Shown here in pieces: positions 7,322 to 40,898 of a stretch of 64,000 nt of DNA. The translations under genes and the position numbers were made by a program. The DNA is from Chrysochromulina tobinii (taxonomy: Eukaryota): positions 1 to 64,000 of the forward strand of contig JWZX01002949.1 in the NCBI GenBank assembly GCA_001275005.1. The letters are read 5' to 3'. The notes beneath the pieces were generated by a model that saw nothing but the letters and a program-made list of their open reading frames with translations, did not search any database and was not told where the DNA came from. Numbering within the stretch: the first letter of the stretch is position 1; every line of letters begins with the position of its first letter.

Positions 7322-10300
7322 ATGAATGAGCTCATCGCGACCGCTCTCTCTTCCCTGGAAGAACCGAACGCAGCGAGCCATATTGCGGCCCTATCTTCGA
7401 TCCCCATCGTCGAGCTCGTCGCCGCGCTCGGGCCGCAGCTCACCGACTCCAATGAGGTCTCGCGCGAGGCAGGTACCCGCCTGCTTGCAGAGGTGCTCTG
7501 GAAGCACACATCGGGAGGCGGTGACGACGCGCTTCCCGCATCCGCCGTCGAGCACCTCGTCGGCTTCTTCACGGACCGTCTCGGCGACTACCTCACCATC
7601 GGTGCCGTCCTGCGCGGCCTCTGTGCCATCACGCAACTGCCGCTCCCCGAAGGGGCGCCGCTCCGCATCGCCTCGACTCTGCTTGAGCAGTGCGACGTGC
7701 GCTCGCTCGTGCAAGCGCAGCGGCACGCGTCCATGTCGCTCGCGCTGGAGCTCGTGCGCGGCCGCCACTGGCCGGCGCTCGCGCCGAGCGGCTGCCGGCT
7801 GCTCCTCTCGACGGTGCGTGCGCTCGACGGCGAGAAGGACCCACGCAACCTGCTCCTGTACCTGCAGCTGCTGCGTCTCATGTGCGAGCGGTGCGAGGCC
7901 TCGGGCGCGCCGGGTCTGGCCGAGGCATTGCCCGAAGTCTTCGAGAGCCTCGTCGCCTACTTCCCCATCACCTTCACCCCGCCGCCGCACGATCCCTTCC
8001 AAATCACCGCTGCACACTTGTTGCAGGCTCTGATTCGGACTCTCAAGGCGAGCGTGCTCTTCGCGCCGCTCGCGCTCGGCTTCTTCGCTCAGAAGCTGCG
8101 CGAGGCAGGCGCGCCGCCCGCGCCGCCAGGCGCCACCGCGAAGGATGAGGAGCAGGAGATGCGCGTGACGCGCATGCAAGTGCTCCAGGCTCTCGCTCTC
8201 CTAACCCCGAGTTACGGCGCCGCTGCCCTCGCGCCGCACGCCGCCGTGCTCGGCGAGGCGCTGGCCGACACGACTAGCCATGCGGTGAGCCCGGCGAACG
8301 GCGACGGCGAGGTGGCGGACGATGCGAGCTCCGTCGCCACCGCCCTCGCGCTCACCCTCAGCGCGCTCGGCGCCGTCGCGAGCGGCACAGGCGAGGCGCC
8401 CGCGACGGCGCCGCGACTAGGCGAGGCGCCCGCGACGGCGCCGTCGCCCGTTTCGCCGTACACGGCCGCGCCGGCCACGCTGCTGGAGACACTGCTAGCG
8501 CCCACCATCTCACGCTGCGTGAGCGCTCCCCCGAGCGGGCTGGGCGCCGTCGTGGGCGCGCCGCTCCTCGGTGCGCTCTCGCGGCAGCACGCAGGCATCG
8601 CGCCGCGGGTGCTTCAACAGGCCCTGCCAGCGCTGCTCCGCCGCCTCGGCGACGACGCCCAGGACGGCGCGGGCGCGGGGGCCGATGCGCTCGATGCGCT
8701 CGCGATGCTCCTGGCGCTGTTGCAGATGGCACGCACCACGTGTGCCACGGCCACGGACGATCACGCACCACGTGGCGCCCGCGACGGCGCGAGCGCCGAG
8801 GCGGGCAGTGCGGAGCCGATGGAGATGGACCCGCCATCGACGCCGTCCACGCCCGTCGCCGCCGGAGCCGCCGCCGCTCCTTCGAGGGATCAGGCGGCAG
8901 CGATCGCACACGAATTCCGCAGCCGGCGCACGGCGATCGTCCATGCGGCCCTCAGGTGCCTCGGCAGCGACGGCTCGGCGGACACAGCGGCGGCGGCGGC
9001 GCGGGTGCTGTGCGCAGCTCTAGCCCCGCCTTTCTGGCCGTCCGAAGAGGCAATGCCGCGCGCTGTCCTGAGCGCCCTCAGGGCCTTTTTGCTCGCGTCC
9101 ACCACCGACAGCGCGGCCGCCGACACGGCGCTCGTGGTTGCTTCGGACGCAGCTCGCCTCTTTGCGAGCTCCCCCAGGTGCGTGGATTGCCACGGATGCC
9201 CTGCCTTGCATGCAAGTGCTCACCACGGCGCTCTCGACCCGCCTCGTTGCGGTCTCCCCACAGGGCAGCGCAGGCCGCACTCGACGTGGAGCTGCGCACA
9301 CCCGTGCTCGGCGCCTTTTGCGCCAAGGCGGAGCGCGCGCTTGCCCCCGACAGCGCGAGCGGCAAGGCGAGCGCTGCGGTCGCACTCGCGCCCATCGTCG
9401 CGGCCTTCTGCGCGGGCGACGCGCCCGCGACAGCGCCGAGCGGCCGCGCACTCTCCACCTCCACCGCGCCGATGGCACGCGCCGTGATGAGCGCGGGGGC
9501 GCCGAGCCTCCAGGTCGCCTCTGGCGAAAAGTCCGCAGGGCCCGAGTGGGCAGAGGGCGTGCACGTGCTCATGGTGATCGCCAAGCGTAGCGTGATCGCC
9601 TCCCTCCGAACGGACGCCCCAGCCGCGCCAGGGACGCTCGCGTTGGCCAGCGCATGCCTGGCGGCGCTCGCGCAGCTCCTCGGTCCGTACACGACTGGCG
9701 GCGCGCGCAATCTGACGAATCCGACGAATCCGACGAATCCGACGAATCCGACGAATCCGAGCCATTTGGATCCCGTGACCGACGCGCCCGCCACGGCGCC
9801 CGAGTGGAGCGTCGCCGTGCTGTACGAGCTCCTCATCGACCGAATCCGTCCGGCGGCGCGGCTCGAGCCGCCGCCACCCTCGCTGCCCGCCGTGGTGGCG
9901 GCGATGGCGCCACTCTGGGCGGCGATGGCCTCTCTGCCGCGCGACGCGTCTCAGCAGCCATTGCTCTCGCTCGCGATCCCATGGCTGCTGCCGCCCCCGA
10001 CGCCCCCGCCGCCCCCGTCGCTCCCGCCGCCCCCGCCGCTCCCGCCCGCAGCCAGTGCAAGTCCGGCTGTCGTGGCGTGCCGGCTGCTGCCCCTGCTGCT
10101 GTGCTCTCTGGTGCACTCGCCTGCAAGCATCCCTCTCGATCAGAGCCTCGCAGAGCCTCTGCTCGGCCTGTGCCTCGCGGGCCTCGCCGCCGCGGACGGC
10201 GCATCCAACGCGCAGGCCGAGGACCTCGAGGTGACGAAACTCGAGGCGGAGGCGGAGGTGCGACTGCGCGCGCTCTGCGTCTTCTTCAACAAGTGGGCGA

Positions 10301-11265
10301 GCGCCGAGGCGCTCGACACGGCGCTCGCGACGACGCTCGCAGCCGCCAAGGTCGGCGACGTGCACGCGCTGCGGACGTGGCTTTGGCTCGGGCGCGCTGC
10401 CGTCTGCCGGGGTGGACGTTACGCGAGCACGGTGCCACAGGCTCTCGTGGGGTTGCTCACCGCGCCGCCGACCGCTCTCGCGACGGCGGCGCTGCACAGC
10501 TGGCTCCTCCGAGCAGCCGACGGAGTGGGCGTGCTCATGGCAGACCCGGCCCCCGACTTACGAAAGGCGTCGGGTGCGCGCACCGCCCCTCTGCTCTCGC
10601 AGCGCCTCTATGTGGCGCTCGCGCCGGCCTTGCGCACCGCGCTCGACCGGACACCCCCCGACGTGCACGCGCCCACGACGGCGCTAGGCGCGGCGGAGAT
10701 GACGGCTCGGCTCGACGCGTCGTCGTGGGCACTGCTCGACGCGCTCACGCTGTGCCTGGTGCACGCGCCACCCGCCACGCTGTTCGCCGAGCCCACCAGC
10801 GCCGTCCCGTACCTCGTCGCCTGGTTGCGCGAAGCGGGGACTGAACTCGGTATGGAAGCGCCGACGGCGTCGTCGGCGGCGGCCGGCTTTCCGACGGCCG
10901 TGCCGCCCACGGCAACGCGCTGGCAGCGGCTGCCACGCGTGTTGCGCCTCGCGTGCCAGCTGCTGGTGCTGCTGCCCCCGAGCGCCGCGGAGCCGTTGGG
11001 TGAGCTGCTCCCCGCGCTCACAGCCCTTCTCCGGGTAGGTGAGCCACTGTCCCTCGGCGCCCAAATTGAGACGCTCGAGGCAGCGCTCGAGTGCCTCTCC
11101 GCCGCCTGCGTGCTGCCTCCGCACTGCCTCGTGCCTCACAAGAAGCGCGTGCTCCGGGCGCTCATGCCTGCCCTCGATCATCACAAGCGCCGCGTGCGCC
11201 ACGCCGCGCGCCTGTGCGCCAGTCAATGGCATCTCACAGTCCTGTTCACAGTTGGGCCTCGATAG
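7322..11265 (+). CDS. MMS19: MMS19/MET18-like cytosolic Fe-S assembly targeting factor; join(7322..9177,9264..11265)
   Basis: LDGEKDPRNLL and YFPITFTPPPHDPFQIT (MMS19 N domain); C-terminal HKKRVLRALMPALDHHKRRVRHAA. GT..AG intron 9178..9263 joins the two ORFs in phase 2. Confidence 0.85.
9714..9758 (+). repeat. (ACGAATCCG)x5 coding tandem repeat (TNP)n
   Basis: Directly visible 9-nt tandem repeat, in frame within MMS19. Confidence 0.9.
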
Positions 11266-13154: not shown

Positions 13155-16100
13155 TCATGCGCTGAGCTCCTCAGCGCTGACGTTGATGGAAGGGGCCCAT
13201 TGGAGCCTTTTGTCGCTCTTTTCGTGGTCCGAATTTGTGGGAGGCGCTCCTGAGAGCACCGAGATGATCTCGTCGTTGAGCGTGAGGATCTTGGGCAGAT
13301 GCATGTCTTTATCCTTGAGGCTCGTCACAGTCACGTCTTCCTTGGCGAGGATATCATGCGCCTCCGCGGGCGTCTTCTCCGCCCACATGGCCTGCAGGCA
13401 TGCGCAGATGGCACTGTTGGCATTGTAGATGGGCGCCACCGTGCATCGCGAGCTGTCAGCCTTAGTGTTGACGTTTGCCATACTGGGCGAGCTGCCACGC
13501 GTCCAAGCTCGGTTGCGTCGCGTGACGTCTCGTGTCTTCGATCGTCCGCTTTGTCCTGTGATGAACTCCGCCTCGGACCGCCAAAGGTCCGCTTTGGGGC
13601 CCAAGAGGCCATCCGGGGACGGAACCTGAAATGAGAGCCATGCCTCAAACTGCGTCCAGAAGCGGGAGAGGTAACTCAGGTCGAGCAGGATGAGCACGGA
13701 GCAGCCGAGGTAGAGGTAGTTGACGTTCTGTAGCATGTAGTTGAAGGCGACCTTCTGCGCGGGCGTCCGGTCGCCCTGCGGCATGCACCAGTAGTCGTAC
13801 CAGACCCACTGCACCTCCAGATGGGCCTCCAAGTAGATCCGGATCTCGGCCAACTGTAAGCCATCCTTGTCGGGCGCGTCCCTCGCAAACCAGCGGTGGC
13901 TCACCGCCAAATACCGTTGGGCGTACGCGCCGCGGAAGGATCCATCGCGCGCGATCGTATGCTTCGAGAGCCAACCGTGGCCGCGCTTACTGAGTTGCTG
14001 GAAGCTCGGTAGGCACTTGTCGGTGCTCTCGCGCAGGTGCGCGGCACTCACGAACCAAAACGTGCACTCGTGCCTTGCTGCCTCGTGCGCTCGCTGCTCG
14101 CGCTCCTCAAGCATCTCGTCCCGCTCAATCGCATTCCTAATTTGGATCGTGTGCCGGATCCGTGTCCACCAGCGGAGTAGTCGACCCTTGCTGAGCACCA
14201 GAAGAATCAGCACGGCGCAGAGGCTGGCGGTCACGATGGCCGTGATATACGATCCGGCCAACATCCAGGGCAGCCTCGGCGGCGTGGCGCACCTGATGAG
14301 GGAGGCAATCCATTGCAATCAAAAGTCATCAGCGGTCATCAGTGGCCATCAGTGGTAGCCTCGGCGGCGTGGCGCACCGGTCGCCCGTGTAACCGTCGGC
14401 GCACACACACGTGCCATCGAGCTGGCACGAGCCACGGCCGTTGCACTGGCTCTCCGTGCGTTCTCCAAGCGCATAGAAGCATTCCCGGTACTCCCACGGA
14501 GGCATCGGGAAGCGCAGATGGACTTTGCCCTCGTCGCCGCGCGCCGGATTGGGTGTGCTCGAGTTCCATGCGGAGGACTCATAGACTGCTCGCACCTGCT
14601 GCTCAACCACCTGCATGGCGGGCGGACGGACGGACGGATGGGAGGGCAGTCAGCAACGGGAAGTGACAAGCGGCACGTTCACATTCCCCCACCTGCGTGA
14701 CGATCATCTCGGAGCTCATCATGCCAAACGAATTGAACGTGATGTGCTGCGCAAACTCGGGCAGGTCCATGGTGCTCAAGGCAGCCGCCACGCGGTCCGT
14801 GTCGAGCGAGTCGGCCGTCTCGACGGCGTGGGCGAGGGCCACGCAGCTCATGAACTGCGACGCACCAACATAACTCACGCCCTCCCCAAACATGGCCAAA
14901 AACGCGTCCGTGAAGTCCTTGCTGGTCATCTGCGTAAACCGGCCGACCGTCCCATTTTTGGACGGATGCCACGTCACGGGCTCGAGGATGTAACCCCATC
15001 GCCACCACGGCTCGGCCAAGGCCATATTTGCGGCGGCCCGTGAATCGACCCACTGTGAATCGGCCCAGCGTGAATCGGAGAGTGCCACAGTGACCATCAC
15101 CGCCAGCGGCGAGTAATTCATCTGGTACAGCGCTTCTACGATCCCCTCAGCGCTCGAAAAATAGGTGCACGCGATCACGTAGGTGACACCAGCCTCTTGC
15201 AGATGCCGCAGCGCTGTCTCGAGCACGTCCAAATACACCGTGTACTCGGTGGAATTTCGGGCGACCGTCGGGCCGGCAGGGACCCCCACCATGAGTGGAG
15301 CGCCCGAGGTCGCATTCAGTGCGTAGCGCATCCCGAGGCTGTTCAGGACGCCCGGCCCCTCCTCAACACACATATTCCGTGGGAATGTCGAGTCTTCATA
15401 GATGAAGCCGGCAAGTAGAGATTGGCGGCAGCTGCCTCCAACAGTGCAGACCATGTCCCGACGCAGCGCGCCCGACGCCACACACAACGGGTTGGTACGC
15501 TTGAACGCGATGGCCTCCGCATCGACGGTGTCGTCGGGCGCGTCGCAGAGCTCCGCGGCCGCAATAACCGCGCGTGTCGTGGCGGCGACAGACTTTGAAC
15601 TTGGAGGCAGCGTGCCGAAGGTGAGGTTGTTGGAGGCAATCACTGCAGGCGTGGCGGCCGAGCTAGCCACGATGATCTTGCGGAGAGCCCCCGACTGCAG
15701 GGCGGCATATTTGGTCTGATGGAGCGAGATGGCGATGGACATGGGGGGAGGGGTGAAGATGAGAAATGAAGAGAGGACGCGCGCACACGCGGATATCGAT
15801 CAGCGGGTGAGCCGGGGGAGGTTCCACATACCAGGGTTGAGCCATAGGGACCGAGCAAGAAGTGAGCCGACTCGACCGTCTCGGAGGCGTGGTACGTCGC
15901 GTTCGTCACTTGAGTTGGGTTCGAGCCATCGCCAACGACGTGGTAACGCACCATGAGCTGTTGGCCACCCACCGTGAGGCCGCCTCTCCTGGTGTTGACC
16001 CAGGAAACAAACAATTCGGTGGCGCGGCGCACCTCGAGAGACCCAGTATAACTTATATCGCTGTAGCGGATCGAAAGCGGCTGGCCGAATACGACCGTCC

Positions 16101-29008: not shown

Positions 29009-30615
29009 GGGTTTCTGTGTCAGGGTTTCTGTGTCAGGGTTATTGGGTCACTTCACACAAAACACACCGGATGACACGTACAGAAACACGCTGGAAATGA
29101 GCAATTCTGAGAGGCTGATGGTTTGGGTCTGGCGTTTTTGGTTTGCTGCTGGGTTGCTGAAGAAGCTGCCGCATTTCTGGGTCAGTAGGATTGGTGCAGC
29201 GTTTCTGGTCCAGCATCCTCCTGAGCACGCTTCGCTGATCAGTAACAACACCAGAGCGTGTTCTCAGTCGCTCCGCATTGTTTGCTGGGCGCCCCGTCTT
29301 CGTTCTTGCACGGCATCGTCATCGGGAGCACCATCGCCGCGCGTGTAGCGCCGAAGGCCCGGACCAACAATGCGTAGCATGGACCAGAAACCCGGACCAG
29401 ACACGAAATTCGGCGCACCAGAAACCGGGTAGTCGGGGAACGCGCCGTCTGGCAGCTCATCAAAGGACATTGCGCATGACGAGGGCCCAGCACCGGTTGC
29501 GGTCGCGTACGCCCGCGGAGCGCGGATGGCTGCGCACGAGGCTTACCTCACGCACAGTACCATTTTGTGTGCTCGGTCTATCCGCGCACAAAGCACGGCG
29601 CCCCATCGGCGTTCTTGCACGGCGTCAACGCCGGCGCCCCATGGCCGGCGTGCGCTGCGCTCGAAGCAGAAGATGTCGCTCGAGCAAGGCGCCCTCCTTG
29701 CAAGAGAATTTCGATAGCGAAGCGCTCGCCTTGTCGTTTCTGTCACCGTCGAGAGTTTCGTCGGTGTACAAACATGAGTTCACGCAAGATATGTTGTGAA
29801 AAGGTTTGACAGCAGAAAACCGATGTTTAGTGTGCCGCTACCGCCGCGCCCAACCGCCGGCTTCCGCCTTTCCCCACACCGCGCTATCCACCGCCCACCG
29901 CCACCGGTCCACCGCCCAGGCCCCGTTTGTCGTTTCTCGTTTCGGTGGTCTCAGGAGCTTTTACATTAGACACTTTAGTTCTCTAGACTCGGTCATGTAC
30001 AGGACAAGTAGGATTCTTATAAACACTGGACTGTGTTTCCTTACAACATGTGACGGATGGTCGGGTGCACAAGCCGTCGGCCCAGGGCCGGGCGGAACTC
30101 CGAGCCGGGGCCGGAGTCGTCGCAATCGGCGTCGGAAGCCCAGTTGCACGTCCCGGCGCAGATGGGCGGAGGAGGCGGGAAGCGCGGGCCGCAGTCGGCG
30201 CAGTCTGTGCCGTAGATGCAGTCTGCGTCTCGGCGCCAGGCCGCCGTCGTCGCAGAGGGAGTCGGAGGTGTAGAGACGCGCCCGTTGGCGCGCCCCCCGA
30301 AGGGAACGCAAAAGAAGTCACTCGGCGCCGCCGTCGCGTGTGACGACGGCGGCGTCGAGAGACGACAGTGTCGTGGCGCACGGCAGCTTGCCAGCTGCCT
30401 GGAGTGATTCAGTAGTGACGGTGGCCGCACGGTGGCCATGGTGACTGCGCGAGCGCGCGTGCCGGCTTTGGCGTGCGTCGGTGCGCCCGCGGCCGGCCGG
30501 GGCGCGCGTCCGCGGCGCGATTTGCTGCGTCTTCATCGGGCGCACCATCGGCCGCGCGCGTCGAGAGGCCTGGCCGCAAAACCCCGTGACACAGAAACCC
30601 GTGACGCAGAAACCC
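29009..30615. repeat. Inverted pair of tandem 14-mers (GGGTTTCTGTGTCA) bracketing about 1.6 kb
   Basis: GGGTTTCTGTGTCA x2 at 29009..29036; reverse-complement copies TGACACAGAAACCC at 30587..30600 and TGACGCAGAAACCC at 30602..30615. Confidence 0.6.
30080..30280 (-). pseudogene. Frameshifted fragment of a Cys-rich repeat (CDDGG..C..GTDC.DCGPR type) surface protein
   Basis: SDSLCDDGG lies in one frame and CIYGTDCADCGPRFPPPPPICAGTCNWASDADCDDSGPGSEF in another; no continuous ORF. Confidence 0.5.
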
Positions 30616-30717
30616 AAAACCCGCGGGGCTGAAAACGGGTAGTGACCTCGACGTGTGACCTCGCTTTCAGGCCGAGAAGGCCGTTGAGTGACCGTGCTGA
30701 GCTTTATTGTGGTTGCC

Positions 30718-33700
30718 ATGGAGACGAAGGTCGTATCGGAGCCCAGAGGAGCGGAGGTTGAGAGCGAGCCAGGCGCAGAGTTTCAACCACTCCTGTGGGA
30801 TGTTGATGTCGGTCGTCGCCTTTGTACGGGGACCGTGGTTGCATATCTGAGCCTTTTTGCACTCGTCACTTCCTCGCTGCACACCTGCGGCAACCCTGAC
30901 TCGACTCAGAAGTCAAGCTGCTTTGGTGCTGCTGCGATGATGCTGACGGCGTTCGCCATGACCAGGCTGCCATGGCGTCGTGAGAAGAATGCAACCTGGG
31001 CGCGCTCTTGTACGCATGTCACCATCTTTGTCTCTGCTGCTACCAATGTGGCAATCGGTCTGGGCATGTCACCAGTCTGCGTCGACATGATGACAGGGCG
31101 GCAACACTACATGCTGCGATGGGTTGAATGGAGCGTCCTATCGTTCACGATGACCTTTGCGACGGAGTCAGCCGCTGCGGCCAGCAGCAAGACTGCATTG
31201 CGCACGGCATTGACACAAAGTGGGAGCACATTGTGTGGCTTGCTATTGCCTCTTTGCCGCAGCAGGTTCATGTGGATCGCTGTCGCTATCATCTCATTTG
31301 CACTTTACATCTTCATCTTTTGGCGCGTCTACGACCATTGGCTGAACTTCCAGAACGCCAAAGCCTACGAGTCGCGAACTTCTATGCGGCGGCGGTCCAT
31401 GGAGTTGTCTTTTTACCTCATCTCAGCGTGCGCAGCCACCTGGTCAGGCTTCGTGGTGATCTGGTCCGCCGATGCCCTTTTGTACGGCGTGTTTGGCGTG
31501 CCGCGCGGCCCATTCGACTTCTCATTCTACTGGGACCTTTTCATCGATGTCTTAGCCAAGCTGGTGTATGCAGATGCCATCGAGTCGAGCGCACCCCTGC
31601 TCAAGATCCGCTTCTCTTTGGACGCCCTCGAGACCGCCGGTGAGCTGCGCCGCCTCTTCGACAAAGCCAACGCGCCGATCTTCGGCGTCGACGACCAGTG
31701 CCGCGTTGCCGAGTGGAACGAGAAGGCGACGTCGATCACTGGCTACTCGGCACGCGAGACGATCGGGCAGGACCTTGTGGAGCGATTCGTCGCGCCTGAA
31801 ATTCGCGCTTCCGTACGCCGTGTGCTGCAGAAAGCCCTGCGCGGGCATGAGACGTCCAACTTTGAGCTAGTCCTTGTCGACAAGGCTGAGAATCGTGTGA
31901 GGGTGCTGCTCAACGCGACGACACGTCGCAATGTTGATGGCGCCATTGTCGGCGTCGTGGGTATAGGGCAAGACGTCACTGAGATGCGCAAGGTAGAAGA
32001 CAAGGCGCGCCAGTATGCAGGAGCTTATTCGGAGCGGCTGTTGCGGAGCTTTGATCTCTCTCTTGATCTCGTCACGCAGATTGATTTTGCCAAGGAGAAC
32101 GCCCCGTCCATCTATTACGCCTCACCTTCGTTCAGGGCGGTGCTTGGCCACTCACCCCACGACGTGCTCGGCGACTGCGCCCAGCTGGAGATGCTCTTCT
32201 CAACTCAGTCGCTAGAGCTCCTGCGCTTGTTCATTCAGCAGATGCGCTCCGGCAAAGACGGCGTGACAGTCGAATACCCGATGCTCCACATCGACGGCCA
32301 CGAAGTGTGGTTTGAGCACAAGGCCTCACGACACCCAGAAAACCCAGACTGTGTGATCGTGGTTTCACGAGACATCACCGATAGACGAGAAAGGCATCGA
32401 TTAGAAGTGGAGAACGCACGCCTGTCTGCCGCGCGCGAGCGCGACATCGAGGCGATGCATTTCCTCTCGCATGAGCTCAAAAACCGCTTCGTGGCGGTGC
32501 GGAGCTGCCGTCTTCCTCGCACCCCCGCCTTCGCATCGTGCTTCCTCTCCTTTCATAAACCCCTTTTCCAACTCATGCCCGGCCGATATCTCTGACCCAT
32601 ACAATATCTGGCCCATTTCCTGCCCGCGCAGATTCGTGGTCTCACGGAGAGCGCACAACTTTCTGTCGCCGAGTACGCGCCCAACCTGCTCTCTGCGCCT
32701 CACAACGTTCGTGAGGTCTTCTCAGACACGCTCGCTGGTATCGATCGCGGAATCTTCCTTTGCATGAATCAGGGGATCGCTCTGCAGCTCGCGCACGAAA
32801 CTTACCGGCCGCACGCGACCCATGTCGACCTGCGCTCAGCGCTGCAAGCGGCGAGTGGCCGGCGTGCCGAAGTGTCCGTCGATCCAGAGCTGCCTGAGCT
32901 CGTACACCTCGACATGAACCTCGTGATGCATGTGCTCGAAAACTTCATCACGAACGCCGTCAGGTATGGAGCCGTGCAGTCGCGCATCACACTGCATGCC
33001 AAGCGCCAAGCTGGCAGGCTGTGCTGCGAGGTCATCAACATGCCTGGGGTGCGCCACCGGGAGGCTCGCACCCGATACGGCGACACAGAAGCCTCCGCTA
33101 AGATCGAAGCCGAACTTGCCGAAAACAGTAGTAGGCTGCAGCGTGATGCGACGAGCACCGGCAACGGCCTGCGCATCGCGCGCAAGTGCACGCTCCTGCT
33201 CGGCGGCGAGTTGACTCTGCACTTTCTGGCGGACAGAGTCGTTGCGGCGATCACGTTGCCGCTGAACTTAATTGAAACCAACGTCAGGCTGTCGATCCCA
33301 GCCGGGTTGCGAGTAGCATCACTCGACGATGACGATGTCATTCGCCGTCTCGATGTACGCTTATTTGCAAAGCTCGGGATCGACGCCCATGTGCGAGGCG
33401 CCACGCCGGAAGAGATCCTAGGATTCCCCGCCTTCGTTGCCAGCCTAGACCCACAACCTCACCTCGTGCTCCTTGACCAAATGCTCGACCATCCTCTCAC
33501 GGGCGACCCTCTTGCCAGAGGCACGGATCTTGTGGCGCCTCTGCGCGCCGCCGGCTTCACCGGAAGGATCGCCATCAAATCTGCCAATCAGTCCTCCGCA
33601 GAGCGGGCCGAGTACCTCGAGAGCGGTGCTGACGGCTCACTTGACAAGGCGCTGCAAGGAGAAGCCTTCGCCCGCGAGCTCGCCGCGATTGTGCACAGGA

Positions 33701-36700
33701 CGACGGCGCAACGCGTCGAGCCCATAGCGGTGAATGTGCTCGGCGCTCTGATGACCTCTGATGACCCTCTGATGACCTCTGATGACCCTCTGATGACCTC
33801 TGATGACCTCTGATGACCTCGCTCCATTGGATCTCGCAGGTGAATGTGCTCGGCGCGGTGGACGTGCTCGACGCCAAAGAGCAAGTGAGTCTCTTCCAAA
33901 CGCGAGCTGCATCCCTCGCCCAAGCAGCCAGTGACCGCTACGCAGATGGCAGCCTCGACCGCGCGTGGAACTGCGCGCATAAGCTCAAAGCCCTGGCGAG
34001 CCTCGTAGGCGCCGTGCCCCTTTCCGAAGCGTGTGAAGCCCTTCGGTCACTCAAGGGGGCCGCTGCGTGGAGCCAAGGACTCAAGAATCTCCATGAGGAG
34101 ACTCAGCGAGCGCTGATGGGCCTTGCCGCCCTGGGCTTTCTGGAGGACAGCCCTTTGGCGCCTCTTTGGTGTCCTCACGACTCCCAGTGGCCACTGTCGA
34201 AGGAGCAACTGACGTCTCTCTTGACAGAGGCTGCTGCGATGCTAGAGGCGCTGCGGCCGTCTCTCTCGTGTCTCTCTTCGGACTTGCCTCTCGACGCGGA
34301 CGCCCTCATCAACGTGAGGCACCGCCTGCACAAGCTAGCGGGGGCGTGCGAGACGCTTGGCGCCCAGCGCCTTGGGCAGCGTGCCCGCAAGTACGCGGCC
34401 CAAGAAGTGCTCGGTAAGTCGGAGTATGATGATTTGGAAGCGGTGCTCAGAGCCACTTTTGGAGCACTGGAAGCTTCCAGCTCACGCGCCGCAACCAGCT
34501 GCAACGAGACGACGATCGAGACGACGATCGTTCACGAAGCGCAGCCGACGCTCTCGAAACCGAGAACACTGGATGGTTTCTCCGCGCCTGAGACTTCTAG
34601 TACTGGCAAAGAAGTCGAGGACGAATCGGCTGTGAAGACCCAACGTTGCACTCGTCATGAGCCTTTTGTATGCGTGGGCATCGATGATGATCCTGTGTGC
34701 CGGGTATTGATTCAGATGGTCCTCCAGGAGCTGAGCCCCGACGTGAGTGTCACGCTGGGCGCGACGCGTAGAGAGCTGCTGTGCGTGGTCGACATGGCGC
34801 TCGGTCGCTGCAGTGTGCACATGCGGCCCATTCCATCGAGCCAGCAGCGCGCCGTCGATCTGATGATCATAGACCAGCATCTGCTCAGTGACGATGGCCA
34901 CGTGATTTTGGGGACTGAGCTGGCTGCCGATCTGCGGGCGCAGGGCTTTGAAGGGATCATATGCATCCTGAGTAGCGCCAGCCGCGCAGAGCTCGAAATT
35001 CTCGAGGCCCATCCCGCCGTGGACCTGGCACGAGGCAAAGGCCAGGTCACCAGCGAGCTGACCACGGAGCTCAAACGGCACCTCGCGGCGCGGAAGAAGG
35101 GTCAGCAGTTCAGCAGCGACGGCAGAGGGAACGGTGGCATCGCGAGAGGCAGTTGCGGTGTCGGTGCGAACAGTGCCAGTGGATGCGGAAGGGGCGATTG
35201 CAGCAGCAGTGGTGGCATCGGCGGTGGCGGCATTGGGGTTGGGGGCAGCAGTGGGGGATGCAGTGGGGATATTGTTGGTGGCAGCGGCGGCAGCGGTGGT
35301 TGTGGACATGATCTCCACGTCAGGGCCGATAAGCTGACACACGAAGACTGCTATGCAGCGCCGTTGCAGCACCTCTTGTCTGACAGCGACTACCTCGCCA
35401 GCTCAGCTAAACGAGAACTCGACGGCAAGCGCGACGACGAGATTGTCGAGGATGAGCTCTCCATCCCTGTGAATGTGAATGTGAATGTGAATGAGCTCTC
35501 CATCCCTGTGAAACTCATGCATCAGCTGCTGGACTCATTGCAAGAAAGTCTATTGGGCTTTGATGCTCACGGCCTGTCTTGGGCTCACGGCGCAGAGCAC
35601 ATTCACAGACTTTCAGGGGCAGCCGCAGTGCTGGGTCATTACGAGCTCGTGCACGCCGCACGTCAGCTGGAAGCTGTGCCGACAAGAGAGAGCTTACAGG
35701 CCGTGCACAATGCCCTTGATAGTCTTCGGCTTGCCTCTCGCGTCGACCAGGCGCTGCCATTCGTTCCCACAAGCGCCAACACGTGTGTCAGCTGCCACGA
35801 GCCTCTGCTCTGTGATGGACGCTCGTGGCGTCTACAACTCTCATGCTCTCACTGCTGCCACTTCGTGTGCATGCTGAAGAGTGTAGAGCTTGGTCACCAC
35901 GCGTGTCCTCTGTGCACCATGCCTCTCGGGTCTTTGCACCGTGTGCATTCAGACGAGGCCTTAGAGGAGCTCGTGCCCGCACAGCTGCGGTGCGTGGGTC
36001 TCTCTGCCGATCCGTTGTGGCGCAGCTTGCACGGTCACACGTTTGCGCTGCTGGATGTGGACGCGATATGCCTGGGCGAAACTGAAGAGGAAACGGAGTC
36101 GTTCGTTGAAGTCGCAGCTGGGCTTGGAAAATCAACGCCGTGGCGGCCAGCGGATGCGGTCTTGCTTGACTCACACGTGGGCACGGACAGCGCGGCCGAG
36201 CTTGCAGTGAAGCTACGAGCGGCCCACTTTCAAGGCGTTATCTGCGTGCTGACGGCGCTGCCGCGCGAGGCGTGTCATGCACTCGAAGCAAGCGTCCCCG
36301 AAATCGACCTCGTGCTTCGCAAGGGGATCCCGCCGAGACTCCTCGGAGCTCGCCTGCGGCTCTGCTTAGCGGCCAAGCGCCAAGCAAGAGCCGCCGAAAG
36401 CAAAAGAGGCCCGAGCGCTCCAAGTGAGTCATCAGACCACGTCCAGGAGGCGCGTGCCACAAGTGCTCTGGCTGAGCCTGCAGCGAAAGCAATAGATGTC
36501 GAGTACCGCAATGACGTCGAGATGACCTCTGATGTCGCTCTTGCCACACCTTTGATTCTTGGAAGGGGTGACCAATCATCTGCGACTGTTGTTGAAGCGA
36601 TTCACTTGCATCCGCGCGATGAATTGCTTCCAAAGCCCTCAGAGGCTTCAGTGCCGATGCGTCTGCAGGAGATCTTCAAGGTAACGGTGGAAGCGCTCGA

Positions 36701-38096
36701 CATCAATACTGGCAAGACCTGGGAAACGGTGCGCTCGACGCTGCTTCCAGCACTCGAAGAGGCGCTTCTAGCCGAGCACCATTCACGCTACGAGAAGGGG
36801 GTGCACAAGCTCTACACTCTCGTGCAGGTGCACGGCCAGCTGGAGCCTAAGCGCTCCTACTCTATGGCTAGGTCCTACGTGGACGAGATGGGGTTGGAAA
36901 TCCCCGAAGGTCTTCGCAACAGCGTGCGCCGGCACGTTGAGACTCGCGTACTCGCCTTTGGTGCGGTTCTGCGAGTGGTGACGGGTGGGTTCTTGCTGTC
37001 CTCTCAGAAACTACCAGAGCTTCTGGATGAGTTCCGATGGGAGCGTGGTACCGAGCGCGAGAGCATGCACACCCTTCTCGCCGAGCTCTTGAACGCCGTC
37101 ACCACCTTTCGGGTTGACGAGACACACGTGTTGGTGTCTACCGAGGACCTCCGGGGAGGGTTAGAGCGGGCCCGTGAGCACTTGTGCCGGGCTTCGCGAA
37201 GCATACTCACAGCTCACGGTCAGGCGCTGCCCACTGAGATCACGAAACGTGTGAAGGAGGGAATCGAGAGTGTCTGTGCGGCCAGCCTTGCTCGAAGCCT
37301 TGCGCCAGAAAGGACGAGTCCAGAGGCGAGTGGTGGGGCTCAACATATCAGCGCCGATGCTGCCAGGAATCCTTTGTCCAAAGCGGCAGCAAAGGTTGTC
37401 GCACGAAGACCAATTAGCCCACCAGCCAGCGACGCGCAAGGGGGGCGCTGTGCATCTGGCTCAAGCGAGATGGCGGATGCGGACGGGAGAATGCTGTGGA
37501 GCGCGTGCCAGCACGGCAAAGTCGCGTTCATCCGGCAGCTTATGAATAGTGGCGTTGAGATTAACACGCCTGTAGAGCACAGCAGGGAGTCGGCACTTCA
37601 CATTGCCGTGCAATACGGGCAGCTGAAGGTCGTGCAGTGCCTTCTCAACCATCCAGCCATCGACCCGAATGCAATCGCACCCTACGCTGGCACCCCATTG
37701 CACCTTGCCGCGCATAAGGGAGACAAGAAGATGGTTGCGCTGCTGCTCACGCATAAGGCTGTCGACCCTAACATAGTGAACGAAGAGCTGGCGCGCATGA
37801 CGCCATTGATGTTTGCTGTGCAGCAAGGTAATATGGGAGTGCTCAAGTTGCTGCTCAGGCACAAGGCCATACAAGTGAACATGCTGTCGAGCATTGGCTT
37901 CAGTGCACTGCATATGGCCGCATACAGTGCGCCTCTCGACGTTTTACAGTGCTTGCTACAGCACCCGGAAATTCTAGTGGACCTGCCAGCACACAATGGC
38001 ACTCGACCACTGCAAGTTGCAATGTCTGAGGGCAGAGAAGATGCCATCCAGCTATTACTCGAAGCTGGTGCGGCACCGTGTTGCATCGTGGACTAG
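30718..38096 (+). CDS. Rhodopsin-PAS-PAS-histidine kinase-REC-Hpt-Hpt-REC-Hpt-RING-REC-ankyrin fusion (about 2377 aa); join(30718..32496,32632..33729,33840..38096)
   Basis: Rhodopsin helices: C RWVEW (31117..31131), E RFMWIAVAIIS, F WSGFVVIW (31441..31464), G DVLAK (Lys 31558..31560). Two PAS domains end in GQDVTE and SRDITD. Phase-0 intron 32497..32631 rebuilds the H-box FLSHELKNRFVA|IRG. N-box ENFITNAVRYG and G2 STGNGL follow. Phase-0 intron 33730..33839 joins exon 3. Three REC domains, three Hpt motifs, a RING-H2 (35784..35915) and about six ankyrin repeats. Confidence 0.85.
33746..33820 (+). repeat. Intronic (CTCTGATGAC)-type 10/11-mer tandem repeat
   Basis: About seven copies of tctgatgacc(c) inside intron 33730..33839. 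Confidence 0.9.
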
Positions 38097-38441
38097 TCTT
38101 GCATGTGCAGTGCGGACACCGAATGGACTTATTAACACTACCTCACCCGTTGCTCTCATACCACGGTCCACGCATTCACGCGGGTTCTATACACTTTGTG
38201 TTTGGGGACCGTGTCGGTCCATGCGTGGGTGCATCCTAGCTATGGGCTATGGGGGTTTGCGCGGTTACAGTATACAGATTACTGTGTACTGAGTGAGTAT
38301 AATACCGTCTGTACAGGAATCAACAGGAACGACCGGTTTCGCTTAAAACCGACACACCGCGGCTACAGTTGTGGTGACTAGTGTAGTCGGGCCCGACCTA
38401 TTCACTTCGAACGGCGACCGGCACGCGTGAAGAGCTGCTGC

Positions 38442-40898
38442 TTACAAACTGGCACGGCGTGGCCGCGGGAGCGGGAGCGGCATCGACCCCGCATCGGCGG
38501 TCCACGGAGGCGGCGCTTGCAAGTCCTCGAAGTCGGGGAGCATCGGCGTACGCTCGAGCATCTCGAGGCGATTACGCCCGTGCATCTCGCGTGCAGTGTG
38601 GGCAGTGGAGCATGGTGTCTCAGCCGTCCTTAAACTGACCAGCCCGCGTGCGCTCAAGCTCCCTTCATGAGATCGGGTCGCGCGCGAGTCGCCCTGTGGA
38701 GGTCTGGGCGCAAGGCTCGCGGATTGGGGGGGCGCAGTCGGCTGCAGCACGGGGGTGATCGGAATGGGCTTGGGGGGTGGGATGGGCTTGGGGGGTGGGA
38801 TGGGCGGCGGATTGGCCGTTCGCGGCGAGACCCAGCCGCGGGGTGGCTGCTGGTCAACGCTCACAAGGCCTTTGTGCAGCCGCGGCTGCACGCCATATCC
38901 CACTGCCAGATTGATCGGCGGCATCTCGACGCGCAACACGAGCAGGTCCTGCCTCCCCTCCGATGCGAGCACCCACCGCTTGTGGAGAGGGTGCCAGGCG
39001 AGATGCTGCTGAGACGGATCCGCCGCGTCGCGCAGCCCGCTCAGCGCGCGCGTCAGGTGGGATCGCAGCTGGCTGAGCGAGTCGAGAGCCGCTAGCACCA
39101 GCACATGTCGCTCGCGCTTCGCTTCCGCCCTGACCTCCTTCACACGCACTTCGAGCCCTCCTTCAGCTTGTTCGAGCCGCTGTCGCACTTCGAGCACCGC
39201 ACTCGCGGCCCTGGCCAGCTCGTCTTGCATCTGGACGTACGATGCCTCGACGCTCATGTGCTTCCGCACGAGCGCCTCGACGTACTGGAGCAGCGGCGGC
39301 CGGCCGTCGGCGTCCAGGATCGGTTTGGGTGCGTCCTCGCCGGCTTTCGCGGGTGCGGGCGGGTGTGGTCGGATCTGTGTCTCGGCGATCCGGGCCTTGC
39401 ACCGCGCAATCTCGGCTTCGAGGCGTAGCTTCTCGTCACGCAAGAAGACCACCGCCTTGTCAGCGGACCCGCCCAGCATGTCCTGCTCCTTGCGATGCGC
39501 TTGGAGCTGGGCGGTGAGCACCGCACATTCGGCCTTGAGACGCTCACACTCAGCGACGAGCTGCTGCAGCGACTGCGCGAACGTCTGCTTCTGTGTGCGC
39601 TCGATCTTCAGATGATCCAATGCCGTCTCGAGCTTGGTCTTCGCCGTCGTCGTCTCGCGCACCAGGTGCTCCACGCGCTGCTGGACGCTCGCATTCTCAT
39701 CCTTGACGAGGTGCAACTCCACGTAAGCCTCGTCAAGCATCCGCATCGCGCTCTGCAGCTCCTCGACGGCCGCGAAGCCGCCCGCACCTGCTGGCTTCAC
39801 GGCCGCCAGCTCCGCGCGCACCTTGTCGAGCTCCGCCTCGCGTACCATGAGCTTCTCGAGGACGGATGCGAGCTCAACCTCGAGCGTTGCACTCGCATCG
39901 GTCGCGCGCGCGGCCTCGAGCTGCGCAAGCAGCGTGCCCACCTGGTGCTCCAGCGCTGCCTTCTCCTTGCCCGTCTTGGAAAGGGCCGCCTGCAGCATCT
40001 GCGCCTTTTCGTGCGCAGCCTCGGCCGATGAGTTGCGCTCGCGCATCTCGGCAATCTCCGCCTTGAGATCGCCGATCTTGGCTGACATAGCATCGTGCTG
40101 CTCCATCGCCTGTTCAAGCGTTGCGAGGTTGGCATGCAATCGCTCGCGCTCTTCGGCCGCGCCTTCGAGCTCTCTCCGCGCCGCCGCCAGCTGCCCTGCC
40201 AGCGCATCCGTCCGCTCGAGTCGCTTCTCCACCTGCTGATGCAAAGGCTCGTCGGCGTCCAAGGGAACGTCGAGGAGGGCGAGGCACTTGCGGATCTCGA
40301 GCACGTGCGCTGATGCAGCCTCGCGCTCCGTCGCAGCCTCCTCCTCAAGCGTGACCATGCGCGCCTGCTCCGTCTGCAGCATGTTCTTGAACATCAGGAG
40401 CTGACCTTGATCGCCCTGGCGCTTGAGCTTCTCCTCGTTGAGCTCCTCCTTTAGACCCTCGATCGTCTTGAGCGCTTTATAGAGCTCGGCGCCGCCTGCA
40501 CCAAGCAACTCCTGCACCCTCTCATCGAGTTTCCGATTGAATGTCGCTTCCATCTCGGCTGCCTGGTTACCCGCCTGCACGCTGTTCGCCTTGCGCATCG
40601 TGGCCATCTTCATTTCAGAGACGACCGATTGGGCCTTGAGGCTATCTTTCGCCGTCAGCTTATGCTGCTCCGAGAGCTTCTCGGCGACCTCAACGCTTGA
40701 GCGGCTCAGCACGTCGAAAACATCCTCCACGACAAACAAGACCCTTTGGCCTACACCTGGTGCGTTGGATTGCGCCTCCTCAACAAGTTTGGCCTTCGCC
40801 TGCACGAGCAGCGCTAAGAGGCTGCGACAACTCTGTGCGAGACTTTCCGCGTACTCCTTGGGCGCGTCCACTTTGCGCATCCCTGGGGGGCTTGCCAT
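38442..40898 (-). CDS. Long coiled-coil protein with Pro-rich tail
   Basis: About 820-codon ORF from ATG 40898, E/K/A/L-rich heptads; no specific family recognised. Confidence 0.7.
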   Translation of the reverse strand: MASPPGMRKVDAPKEYAESLAQSCRSLLALLVQAKAKLVEEAQSNAPGVGQRVLFVVEDVFDVLSRSSVEVAEKLSEQHKLTAKDSLKAQSVVSEMKMATMRKANSVQAGNQAAEMEATFNRKLDERVQELLGAGGAELYKALKTIEGLKEELNEEKLKRQGDQGQLLMFKNMLQTEQARMVTLEEEAATEREAASAHVLEIRKCLALLDVPLDADEPLHQQVEKRLERTDALAGQLAAARRELEGAAEERERLHANLATLEQAMEQHDAMSAKIGDLKAEIAEMRERNSSAEAAHEKAQMLQAALSKTGKEKAALEHQVGTLLAQLEAARATDASATLEVELASVLEKLMVREAELDKVRAELAAVKPAGAGGFAAVEELQSAMRMLDEAYVELHLVKDENASVQQRVEHLVRETTTAKTKLETALDHLKIERTQKQTFAQSLQQLVAECERLKAECAVLTAQLQAHRKEQDMLGGSADKAVVFLRDEKLRLEAEIARCKARIAETQIRPHPPAPAKAGEDAPKPILDADGRPPLLQYVEALVRKHMSVEASYVQMQDELARAASAVLEVRQRLEQAEGGLEVRVKEVRAEAKRERHVLVLAALDSLSQLRSHLTRALSGLRDAADPSQQHLAWHPLHKRWVLASEGRQDLLVLRVEMPPINLAVGYGVQPRLHKGLVSVDQQPPRGWVSPRTANPPPIPPPKPIPPPKPIPITPVLQPTAPPQSASLAPRPPQGDSRATRSHEGSLSARGLVSLRTAETPCSTAHTAREMHGRNRLEMLERTPMLPDFEDLQAPPPWTADAGSMPLPLPRPRRASL

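What the first reader, a model, noticed from the sequence alone, without database searches (positions are those of the whole stretch)
30718..31590. Divergent rhodopsin domain: Schiff-base Lys kept, non-pump helix-C motif, probable extra TM0
Seen, aligned by eye to bacteriorhodopsin: R82=R, D85=E, W86=W, T89=L, P91=F, D96=A, D115=Q, G122=G, W182=W, Y185=F, P186=V, W189=W, D212=D, K216=K. An additional hydrophobic helix (LCTGTVVAYLSLFALVTSSL) precedes helix A. Established: the helix-G DxxxK binds retinal, pumps use DTD/DTE-type motifs, and enzyme rhodopsins have 8 TM helices. Inference: a retinal-binding, non-pumping 8-TM sensory rhodopsin; loss of both conserved prolines suggests unusual photochemistry and a distinct clade, possibly of optogenetic interest.
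Basis: partly seen in the sequence, partly recalled or inferred. Interest (0 to 1): 0.8.

Follow-up and report, generated by a model that had tools for sequence, protein, structure and literature searches.

The report
Hidden algal rhodopsin–kinase light sensor
A spliced algal gene joins a very diverged membrane domain, predicted to fold like a light-sensing rhodopsin, to a signalling kinase, so it is likely a light-controlled switch from a large family in haptophytes and diatoms that standard domain databases do not recognise.

Summary
Observation confirmed. 30718-31590 encodes a microbial-rhodopsin-fold domain with an extra N-terminal helix. Pfam misses it. Its AlphaFold model (pLDDT 90.5) matches rhodopsin phosphodiesterase best (Z 24.4), and only the two 8-TM rhodopsins align over the extra helix. 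The Schiff-base-position Lys is kept in 119 of 124 homologues and Arg82 in 144 of 144.

It is the N-terminus of a 2377-aa gene whose two introns are spliced in RNA contigs: rhodopsin-PAS-PAS-histidine kinase-receiver-Hpt, then two more Hpt, two receiver-like domains, a RING-H2 pattern and ankyrins. It belongs to a family of 230 or more clusters in haptophytes and diatoms; none of 128 scanned passes Pfam's rhodopsin cut-off. Both proline losses and the E-L-x motif are family-wide; Glu85 is ordinary for enzyme rhodopsins.

Best reading: a light-regulated hybrid histidine kinase, like green-algal HKRs but with a PAS linker and no cyclase. Retinal binding and kinase activity are untested, and the ATP-binding G1 box is atypical. 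Nine literature searches found no description. This scan noted the same family twice before on other DNA. The extra PAS and the long tail were seen only in this gene's lineage.

The parts
30718..32496 (+). Exon 1 (aa 1-593): rhodopsin domain, two PAS domains, start of the kinase dimerisation helix with H-box His585
   Evidence: first in-frame ATG after upstream stops; RNA contigs start at 30701-30723
30802..30876 (+). TM0, extra N-terminal helix (aa 29-53); Tyr43 at a family-conserved aromatic position
30901..31587 (+). Seven-helix rhodopsin core TM1-TM7 (aa 62-290) with beta-hairpin 119-131; R134, E137, W138, W242, D273, D277, K281 (K281 codon 31558-31560)
31642..31989 (+). PAS domain 1 (aa 309-424), canonical; among long homologues seen only in this gene and two Prymnesium sp. 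proteins
32050..32397 (+). PAS domain 2 (about aa 445-560) ending in the RDIT motif; homologous to the family's divergent linker domain
32497..32631 (+). Intron 1, 135 nt, GT..AG
   Evidence: spliced in contigs of 2 of 3 RNA runs and 0 of 1 DNA run
32632..33729 (+). Exon 2 (aa 594-959): HATPase_c domain (N-box; atypical N-x-P-G in place of the G1 box; G2) and receiver 1 with Asp875
33730..33839 (+). Intron 2, 110 nt, GT..AG, holding a CTCTGATGAC tandem array; its first bases repeat the start of exon 3 (18 letters fit either side)
33840..38096 (+). Exon 3 (aa 960-2377): Hpt (H1006), Hpt (H1123), receiver-like (D1304, motif only), Gly-rich stretch, Hpt (H1548), RING-H2 pattern (C1608-C1651), receiver-like (D1736), about 300 aa unassigned, ankyrin repeats, stop
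   Evidence: RNA contigs cover it except 35215-35273

Best explanation
This is the 8-helix rhodopsin-fold sensor end of a spliced 2377-aa hybrid histidine kinase gene, and it likely binds retinal at Lys281 so that light would switch the kinase and its built-in phosphorelay. Shown: the spliced reading frame, the domain order, and family-wide conservation of the Schiff-base pocket and of the phosphorelay His and Asp. Predicted: the fold and TM0. Inferred steps: (1) retinal forms a Schiff base at K281, with D277 as counterion and E137 beside it as in Rh-PDE, plus a family-specific acid D273 one turn away; (2) isomerisation shifts TM6/TM7, and TM7 runs on as a helix (aa 292-300) into PAS1, PAS2 and the RDIT-led helix into the dimerisation domain; (3) this changes autophosphorylation of H585 and transfer to D875 and then to Hpt histidines; (4) output leaves through Hpt to separate regulators and, in this gene, perhaps through the RING-H2 and ankyrin tail. 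Light-inhibition is the weak default by analogy with 2c-Cyclop. It is not a pump: T89 is Leu and D96 is apolar.
For: Fold: model pLDDT 90.5, pTM 0.88. 7D7Q Z 24.4, rmsd 3.6, 261 aligned; bestrhodopsin 7PL9 Z 21.2, rmsd 3.0, 258 aligned. Only these two align from model residue 27-28; the other 34 rhodopsins start at 49-63; the first non-rhodopsin has Z 13.6. Sequence profile: best PDB hits are Rh-PDE, E 4e-7 and 6.5e-6, aligned from TM0 to TM7 (same order). Conservation in 147 homologue rows: K 119 of 124, R82 144 of 144, E85 137 of 144, W86 132 of 144, W182 128 of 132, acid at 212 115 of 123. D273, D277, K281 and Y284 are the low-entropy face of helix G. The Rh-PDE TM0-TM2 contact W63-S136 is matched by an aromatic at 43 (120 of 125; register off by one in a low-confidence stretch) and T/S at 109 (124 of 142). 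Three of Rh-PDE's four polyene aromatics are matched (W138, W242, F245). Kinase: 43 of 44 hits with 450 aa or more after the rhodopsin carry the kinase (the profile was built from family rows, so this count is partly circular; Pfam HATPase_c hits are independent). Receiver Asp is kept in 34 of 37 aligned homologues. Both introns are spliced in RNA contigs and not in DNA.
Against: No experiment shows retinal binding. No Pfam rhodopsin match and only 13% identity to the best structure. The ring-side aromatic (Rh-PDE F216) is Ala190 here, and the BR M118 position is Ser, so the pocket is unusually open. The position I read as the G1-box Asp is Asn in 35 of 37 homologues and Asp in none, so ATP binding is not guaranteed. 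Receiver 1 scores below Pfam's cut-off, receiver-like 2 matches no family, and the RING matches Pfam only at E 0.23. RNA continuity over 35215-35273 is not shown. The ESM Atlas leads were rhodopsin clusters but scored under 0.9.
Confidence: 0.74

Rival explanations
1. A retinal-binding photoreceptor whose kinase does not autophosphorylate. Light would instead control phosphatase activity, phosphate received from another kinase, or the scaffold/RING output.
For: G1-position Asp replaced by Asn in 35 of 37 homologues, and G2 is G-D-G-A-W in most of them. HATPase_c scores are mostly below Pfam's cut-off. The HKR Cop5 showed no functional output in Tian 2018.
Against: The H-box His (the selection criterion for these rows), the N-box and the receiver Asp (34 of 37) are conserved across haptophytes and diatoms. 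The window's G2 is canonical G-N-G-L, and its HATPase_c passes the Pfam cut-off.
Confidence: 0.12
2. An opsin-derived sensor that no longer uses retinal or light and senses a lipid, pH, voltage or another ligand through the rhodopsin fold.
For: Many retinal-pocket positions differ from all solved rhodopsins: T89L, P91F/G, P186V, Y57N/D, ring aromatic lost. Identity to known structures is 16% or less.
Against: Lys at the Schiff-base position in 119 of 124 rows at roughly 25-40% identity, together with R82, E85, W86, W182 and D/E212, is hard to explain without a Schiff base.
Confidence: 0.1
3. A light-driven pump or channel that merely carries a kinase tail.
For: Acids at 85 and 212 and Arg82 are kept; pumps fill many of the top fold ranks.
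Against: D96 position apolar (L 77, M 28, V 17, I 13 of 146) and T89 Leu in 125 of 144. Rh-PDE, with the same Glu/Asp pair and an apolar 96, does not transport.
Confidence: 0.03
4. Architecture rival, compatible with the main reading: the tail after the first Hpt domains is a separate transcript or an alternative form, so the RING and ankyrins are not part of the photoreceptor.
For: The two closest named homologues end after one Hpt at 1031-1079 aa. Listed RNA pieces leave 35215-35273 uncovered.
Against: One open frame runs from 33840 to 38096. One RNA contig runs from 32432 to 35185 across both introns, so Hpt2 and receiver-like 2 are joined. The gap is a Gly-rich low-complexity stretch.
Confidence: 0.12

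Closest known systems
Histidine kinase rhodopsins of green algae (HKR1/Cop5, Cr2c-Cyclop1, Ot-HKR)
   Same: 8-TM microbial rhodopsin fused N-terminally to a histidine kinase and receiver; Lys, His and Asp of the relay present (Tian 2018 passages).
   Different: In 2c-Cyclop the kinase follows the opsin directly (K298 to H352, 54 aa) and ends in a guanylyl cyclase. Here K281 to H585 spans 304 aa with two PAS domains, no cyclase was found, and the output is Hpt, RING-H2 and ankyrin. Hosts are haptophytes and diatoms.
Rhodopsin phosphodiesterase of Salpingoeca rosetta (PDB 7D7Q, 7CJ3)
   Same: Best match by profile (E 4e-7) and fold (Z 24.4), including TM0; Glu85/Asp212/Lys216 equivalents; Phe at the Y185 position; TM7 running on as a helix.
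   Different: 13% identity. Rh-PDE keeps T89, C90, P91 and P186, whereas this protein has L, S, F and V. The position one turn before the counterion is Asn there and Asp/Glu here. The effector is a phosphodiesterase, not a kinase.
Bestrhodopsin (PDB 7PL9)
   Same: 8-TM rhodopsin module; aligns over TM0 (Z 21.2, 258 residues).
   Different: Fused to a bestrophin channel; 12% identity; not listed in the profile searches.

Membership tests
Microbial (type 1) rhodopsin | Seven-helix rhodopsin fold | tested here: met
   (predicted model; top 36 matches are rhodopsin entries); by profile
Microbial (type 1) rhodopsin | Lys in TM7 at the Schiff-base position | tested here: met
   K281 aligns with Rh-PDE K296; 119 of 124 homologues
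Microbial (type 1) rhodopsin | Covalent retinal pigment and photoreaction | not testable with these tools
   needs expression and spectroscopy
Pfam PF01036 Bac_rhodopsin | Score above the gathering cut-off | tested here: not met
   no hit for the window protein; 0 of 128 homologues pass, 2 have sub-threshold hits
8-TM enzyme rhodopsins (type Ib) | Extra N-terminal helix TM0 placed as in Rh-PDE | tested here: met
   predicted model, not a solved structure
8-TM enzyme rhodopsins (type Ib) | Cytosolic enzyme fused after TM7 | tested here: met
8-TM enzyme rhodopsins (type Ib) | Both termini cytosolic; homodimer; light-regulated enzyme activity | not testable with these tools
   topology follows from 8 helices but was not measured; dimer not tested
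Green-algal HKR / 2c-Cyclop | Rhodopsin + histidine kinase + receiver in one chain | tested here: met
Green-algal HKR / 2c-Cyclop | Kinase directly behind the opsin; C-terminal guanylyl cyclase (2c-Cyclop) | tested here: not met
   two PAS domains intervene; no cyclase family in any scanned segment
Green-algal HKR / 2c-Cyclop | Opsin domain falls in the HKR clade | not tested
   no HKR sequence was returned by any search; the tree has no outgroup
Canonical hybrid histidine kinase | H-box His, N-box, receiver Asp, Hpt His | tested here: met
   H585, N-box, D875, H1006/H1123/H1548
Canonical hybrid histidine kinase | G1 box D-x-G-x-G (motif recalled) | tested here: not met
   N-x-P-G here; Asn in 35 of 37 homologues, Asp in none; assignment by position
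Outward proton pumps (DTD/DTE) | D85, T89 and D/E96 | tested here: not met
   E-L-A here; E-L-L in 61 of 121 rows

The most novel reading that the evidence does not exclude
This family is a second, independently assembled class of rhodopsin histidine kinase and a major overlooked light sensor of diatoms and haptophytes. Its three-acid Schiff-base region (E137, D273, D277) and proline-free pocket give a new photochemistry (bistable or strongly shifted), and in this member light is wired through an internal multi-step phosphorelay to a RING ubiquitin ligase.
Probability: 0.22. Interest if true: 0.88.

Novelty: new variant of a known kind. Interest (0 to 1): 0.7.

Why it matters
Reviews place enzyme rhodopsins in fungi, green algae and choanoflagellates (PMC12558739), and an ocean metatranscriptome survey did not detect rhodopsin-histidine-kinase transcripts (PMC8017926). 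A family of at least 230 clusters in haptophytes and diatoms that escapes Pfam would add a photoreceptor class to two dominant phytoplankton groups. It makes testable how they sense light beyond LOV, cryptochrome and phytochrome. The modular rhodopsin-PAS-kinase layout and a retinal pocket unlike solved ones are also raw material for optogenetic two-component switches.

Tried and rejected
Single-sequence searches gave no rhodopsin: Pfam (only E 0.1-0.4 noise) and PDB. Word-based homologue searches found only 2, 1 and 3 proteins. Cannabinoid receptor 2 in the profile search (E 0.013) was rejected: partial, and GPCRs rank at Z 11 or less by fold. ESM Atlas on the domain gave rhodopsin clusters at 0.87-0.89, a lead only; on full-length P0076 it gave only bacterial hybrid kinases. 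No close relative in viral contigs (exact peptide patterns, weak); prokaryotic genomes were not scanned. A conserved TM0-TM1 disulfide (C57/C68) was rejected as a family trait: Cys in 10 of 135 at 68. LOV identity for PAS2 was rejected: its G-D-C Cys is absent in the P0004 homologue. PAS1 and PAS2 are not a recent duplication (no BLAST match). No second family member lies in the window, and no photoreceptor or retinal-synthesis family appeared among 24 neighbouring long ORFs. No whole genome was available. Foldseek PDB and viral fold searches could not be run because the queue was full. One search timed out and was redone.

Full report
Observation. Neither Pfam nor phmmer against PDB sequences recognises a rhodopsin, so the claim had to be tested through relatives and structure. 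BR numbering below is recalled; the register was checked through Rh-PDE.

Gene. The window is eukaryotic DNA. Contigs of three RNA runs and one DNA run (4 of the 21 runs listed) were laid on 29800-38600. Two GT..AG introns, 32497-32631 and 33730-33839, are skipped in contigs of 2 of the 3 RNA runs and not in the DNA run; the third RNA run's contigs break near the same places. Splicing gives one 2377-aa frame ending at 38096. The listed RNA pieces tile 30701-35214 and 35274-38324. The 59 nt between them encode a Gly-rich stretch and are not shown to be transcribed through. Domain order: membrane domain 29-290; PAS 309-424; PAS about 445-560; H-box H585; HATPase_c; receiver D875 (Pfam E 3e-4, below cut-off); Hpt H1006 and H1123; receiver-like D1304 (motif only, no family hit); Hpt H1548; a C3H2C3 RING-H2 spacing at 1608-1651 (read by eye; Pfam E 0.23); receiver-like D1736 (NCBIfam E 6e-7, first acidic pair degenerate); about 300 unassigned residues; ankyrin repeats. 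Databases hold this gene only as intron-truncated proteins, of which those with a descriptive name are called 'PAS domain S-box-containing protein'.

Family. phmmer with the membrane domain over 1.84 billion cluster representatives gave 230 hits at E 0.001 or better, 91 at 1e-10 and 6 at 1e-30; 150 were listed. Of 30 clusters looked up, those naming an organism are haptophytes (Prymnesium sp., Chrysotila, Diacronema, Rebecca) or diatoms (Entomoneis, Cylindrotheca twice, Corethron, Fistulifera); the rest name none. P0004 is also Prymnesium sp. I scanned 128 of the 149 non-self listed hits against Pfam (21 shorter ones left out): none passes Bac_rhodopsin, and two give sub-threshold hits (E 0.0029, 0.0024). 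In a tree of 126 of 153 rows (those covering at least 160 columns; midpoint root, no outgroup), the window protein groups with the two Prymnesium proteins (support 0.999) inside a 26-leaf clade with Chrysotila (0.973). The host is therefore likely a prymnesiophyte haptophyte (inference).

Is it a rhodopsin? A 47-sequence profile finds Rh-PDE first in the PDB (7D7Q E 4e-7, 7CJ3 6.5e-6), then GtCCR2 (0.006), cannabinoid receptor 2 (0.013, rejected), cyanorhodopsin-II and ChRmine; the 127-sequence profile again ranks Rh-PDE first. AlphaFold2 with that alignment gives pLDDT 90.5, eight long helices and the TM2-TM3 hairpin. Against 48,161 chains, ranks 1-36 are microbial-rhodopsin entries (Z 24.4 to 15.5); the first other protein is TMEM87A at 13.6. 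Only Rh-PDE (model 27-301) and bestrhodopsin (28-301) align over the first helix, so it is TM0. In 147 homologue rows (6 near-identical rows removed) the pocket is held: R82 144 of 144, E85 137 of 144, W86 132 of 144, G122 136 of 144, W182 128 of 132, D/E212 115 of 123, K216 119 of 124. A leave-out profile recovers the ORF at E 1.2e-64. TM0 is hydrophobic in 98% of 128 rows. Rh-PDE's TM0-TM2 contact W63-S136 has a counterpart in aromatic 43 and T/S109, with a one-residue register doubt at 43.

What is odd. Family-wide: T89 to Leu (125 of 144), T90 to Ala/Ser, P91 to Phe/Gly (133 of 144), P186 to Val (Pro in 4 of 131), Y57 to Asn/Asp (120 of 142), D115 to Gln (109 of 145), M118 to Ser (131 of 145), and an acid one turn before the counterion (D/E in 109 of 125; D273 here; Asn in Rh-PDE). 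The triad is E-L-A here and E-L-L in 61 of 121 rows. Glu85 itself matches Rh-PDE E164, which is protonated and not a counterion. These changes define a clade. They do not predict a colour: HKR2 lacks both counterions yet responds to green light, and NeoR with three carboxylates absorbs far red (PMC8815786). D273 may simply partner R134.

Effector. Of listed hits with at least 450 residues after the rhodopsin, 43 of 44 carry the kinase, and 82 of 90 with at least 100 residues carry a shared linker (profiles built from family rows, so partly circular). That linker matches the end of the window's PAS2 (E 7e-11) and, weakly, PAS proteins in the PDB (E 0.007-0.06). The family core is thus rhodopsin-PAS-kinase-receiver-Hpt. 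The window gene and two Prymnesium proteins add a canonical PAS; the long tail was seen only here. In 37 aligned homologues (chosen for having an H-box) the receiver Asp is kept in 34, but the position of the G1 Asp is Asn in 35 and Asp in none. This is the main caveat for autokinase activity.

Mechanism. Most likely (0.74) a dimeric, light-switched hybrid kinase: retinal at K281, signal through TM7 and the PAS pair to H585, relay to D875 and the Hpt domains. The relay chemistry and its light control are shown for Cr2c-Cyclop1 (K298A, H352F, D1092T) and only inferred here. Rivals: a photoreceptor with a non-autophosphorylating kinase (0.12), a retinal-free sensor (0.10), an ion transporter (0.03). 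Separately, the tail may not be in the same transcript (0.12).

Literature. Nine full-text searches returned no description of haptophyte or diatom rhodopsin-kinases. I saw passages only, never whole texts, of PMC12558739, PMC8815786, PMC8818676, PMC8017926, PMC6324907, PMC13436692, PMC12557545, PMC6284317, PMC6798134, PMC4580454, bioRxiv 10.1101/2020.04.14.040642 and 10.64898/2026.09.29.755320; no supplements were opened. The eukaryotic kinase survey PMC6324907 counts 34 Fistulifera kinases and mentions rhodopsin only in a reference title. The library lacks most subscription papers, so the family may sit unnamed in a review tree or supplement. Two earlier notes of this scan describe what reads as the same family on other DNA; I reached this reading before seeing them, and they are not independent evidence.

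Verdict. A real, transcribed 8-TM rhodopsin-fold sensor kinase; a new variant of the enzyme-rhodopsin kind, apparently undescribed in print; function untested. Interest 0.70.

Noticed in passing
window 33730-33839: Intron 2 begins with a copy of the first bases of exon 3 (18 letters fit either side of the joint) and holds a 7.3-copy CTCTGATGAC array whose words are very deeply covered by other contigs. It looks like a recent intron gain by duplication or a repeated intron element.
   Followed up: partly
window 30041-30439 (minus strand): Upstream of the gene lies a high-copy element (summed DNA contig depth about 24,000 versus 83) whose minus-strand frame reads a Cys-rich CADCGP...DCDDSGPG motif.
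   Followed up: no
window 35778-35918: Exact RING-H2 (C3H2C3) spacing between an Hpt and a receiver-like domain; a ubiquitin-ligase finger inside a phosphorelay protein would be unusual.
   Followed up: partly
window 36510-37412: About 300 aa with no Pfam or NCBIfam match, between the last receiver-like domain and the ankyrins; not folded.
   Followed up: partly
proteins P0109, P0118, P0120, P0147: A subclade of the family has 340-650-aa low-complexity N-terminal tails with a repeated S-S/T-V-G-S-x-A-P-T motif ahead of TM0, resembling repeated phosphorylation or docking sites.
   Followed up: no
literature, PMC8818676 and PMC4580454: A non-electrogenic Diacronema (Pavlova) lutheri rhodopsin is mentioned, and Chrysochromulina tobin has two PAS-containing, diel-regulated genes annotated as bacterio-opsin activators. 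Either might belong to this family; not checked.
   Followed up: no
window 7322-11265: MMS19 N- and C-terminal domains lie in two overlapping frames, implying an intron or frameshift.
   Followed up: no
window 14603-15742 (minus strand): A periplasmic-binding-protein domain (PF13458) in this eukaryotic window, possibly the ligand-binding part of a receptor.
   Followed up: no
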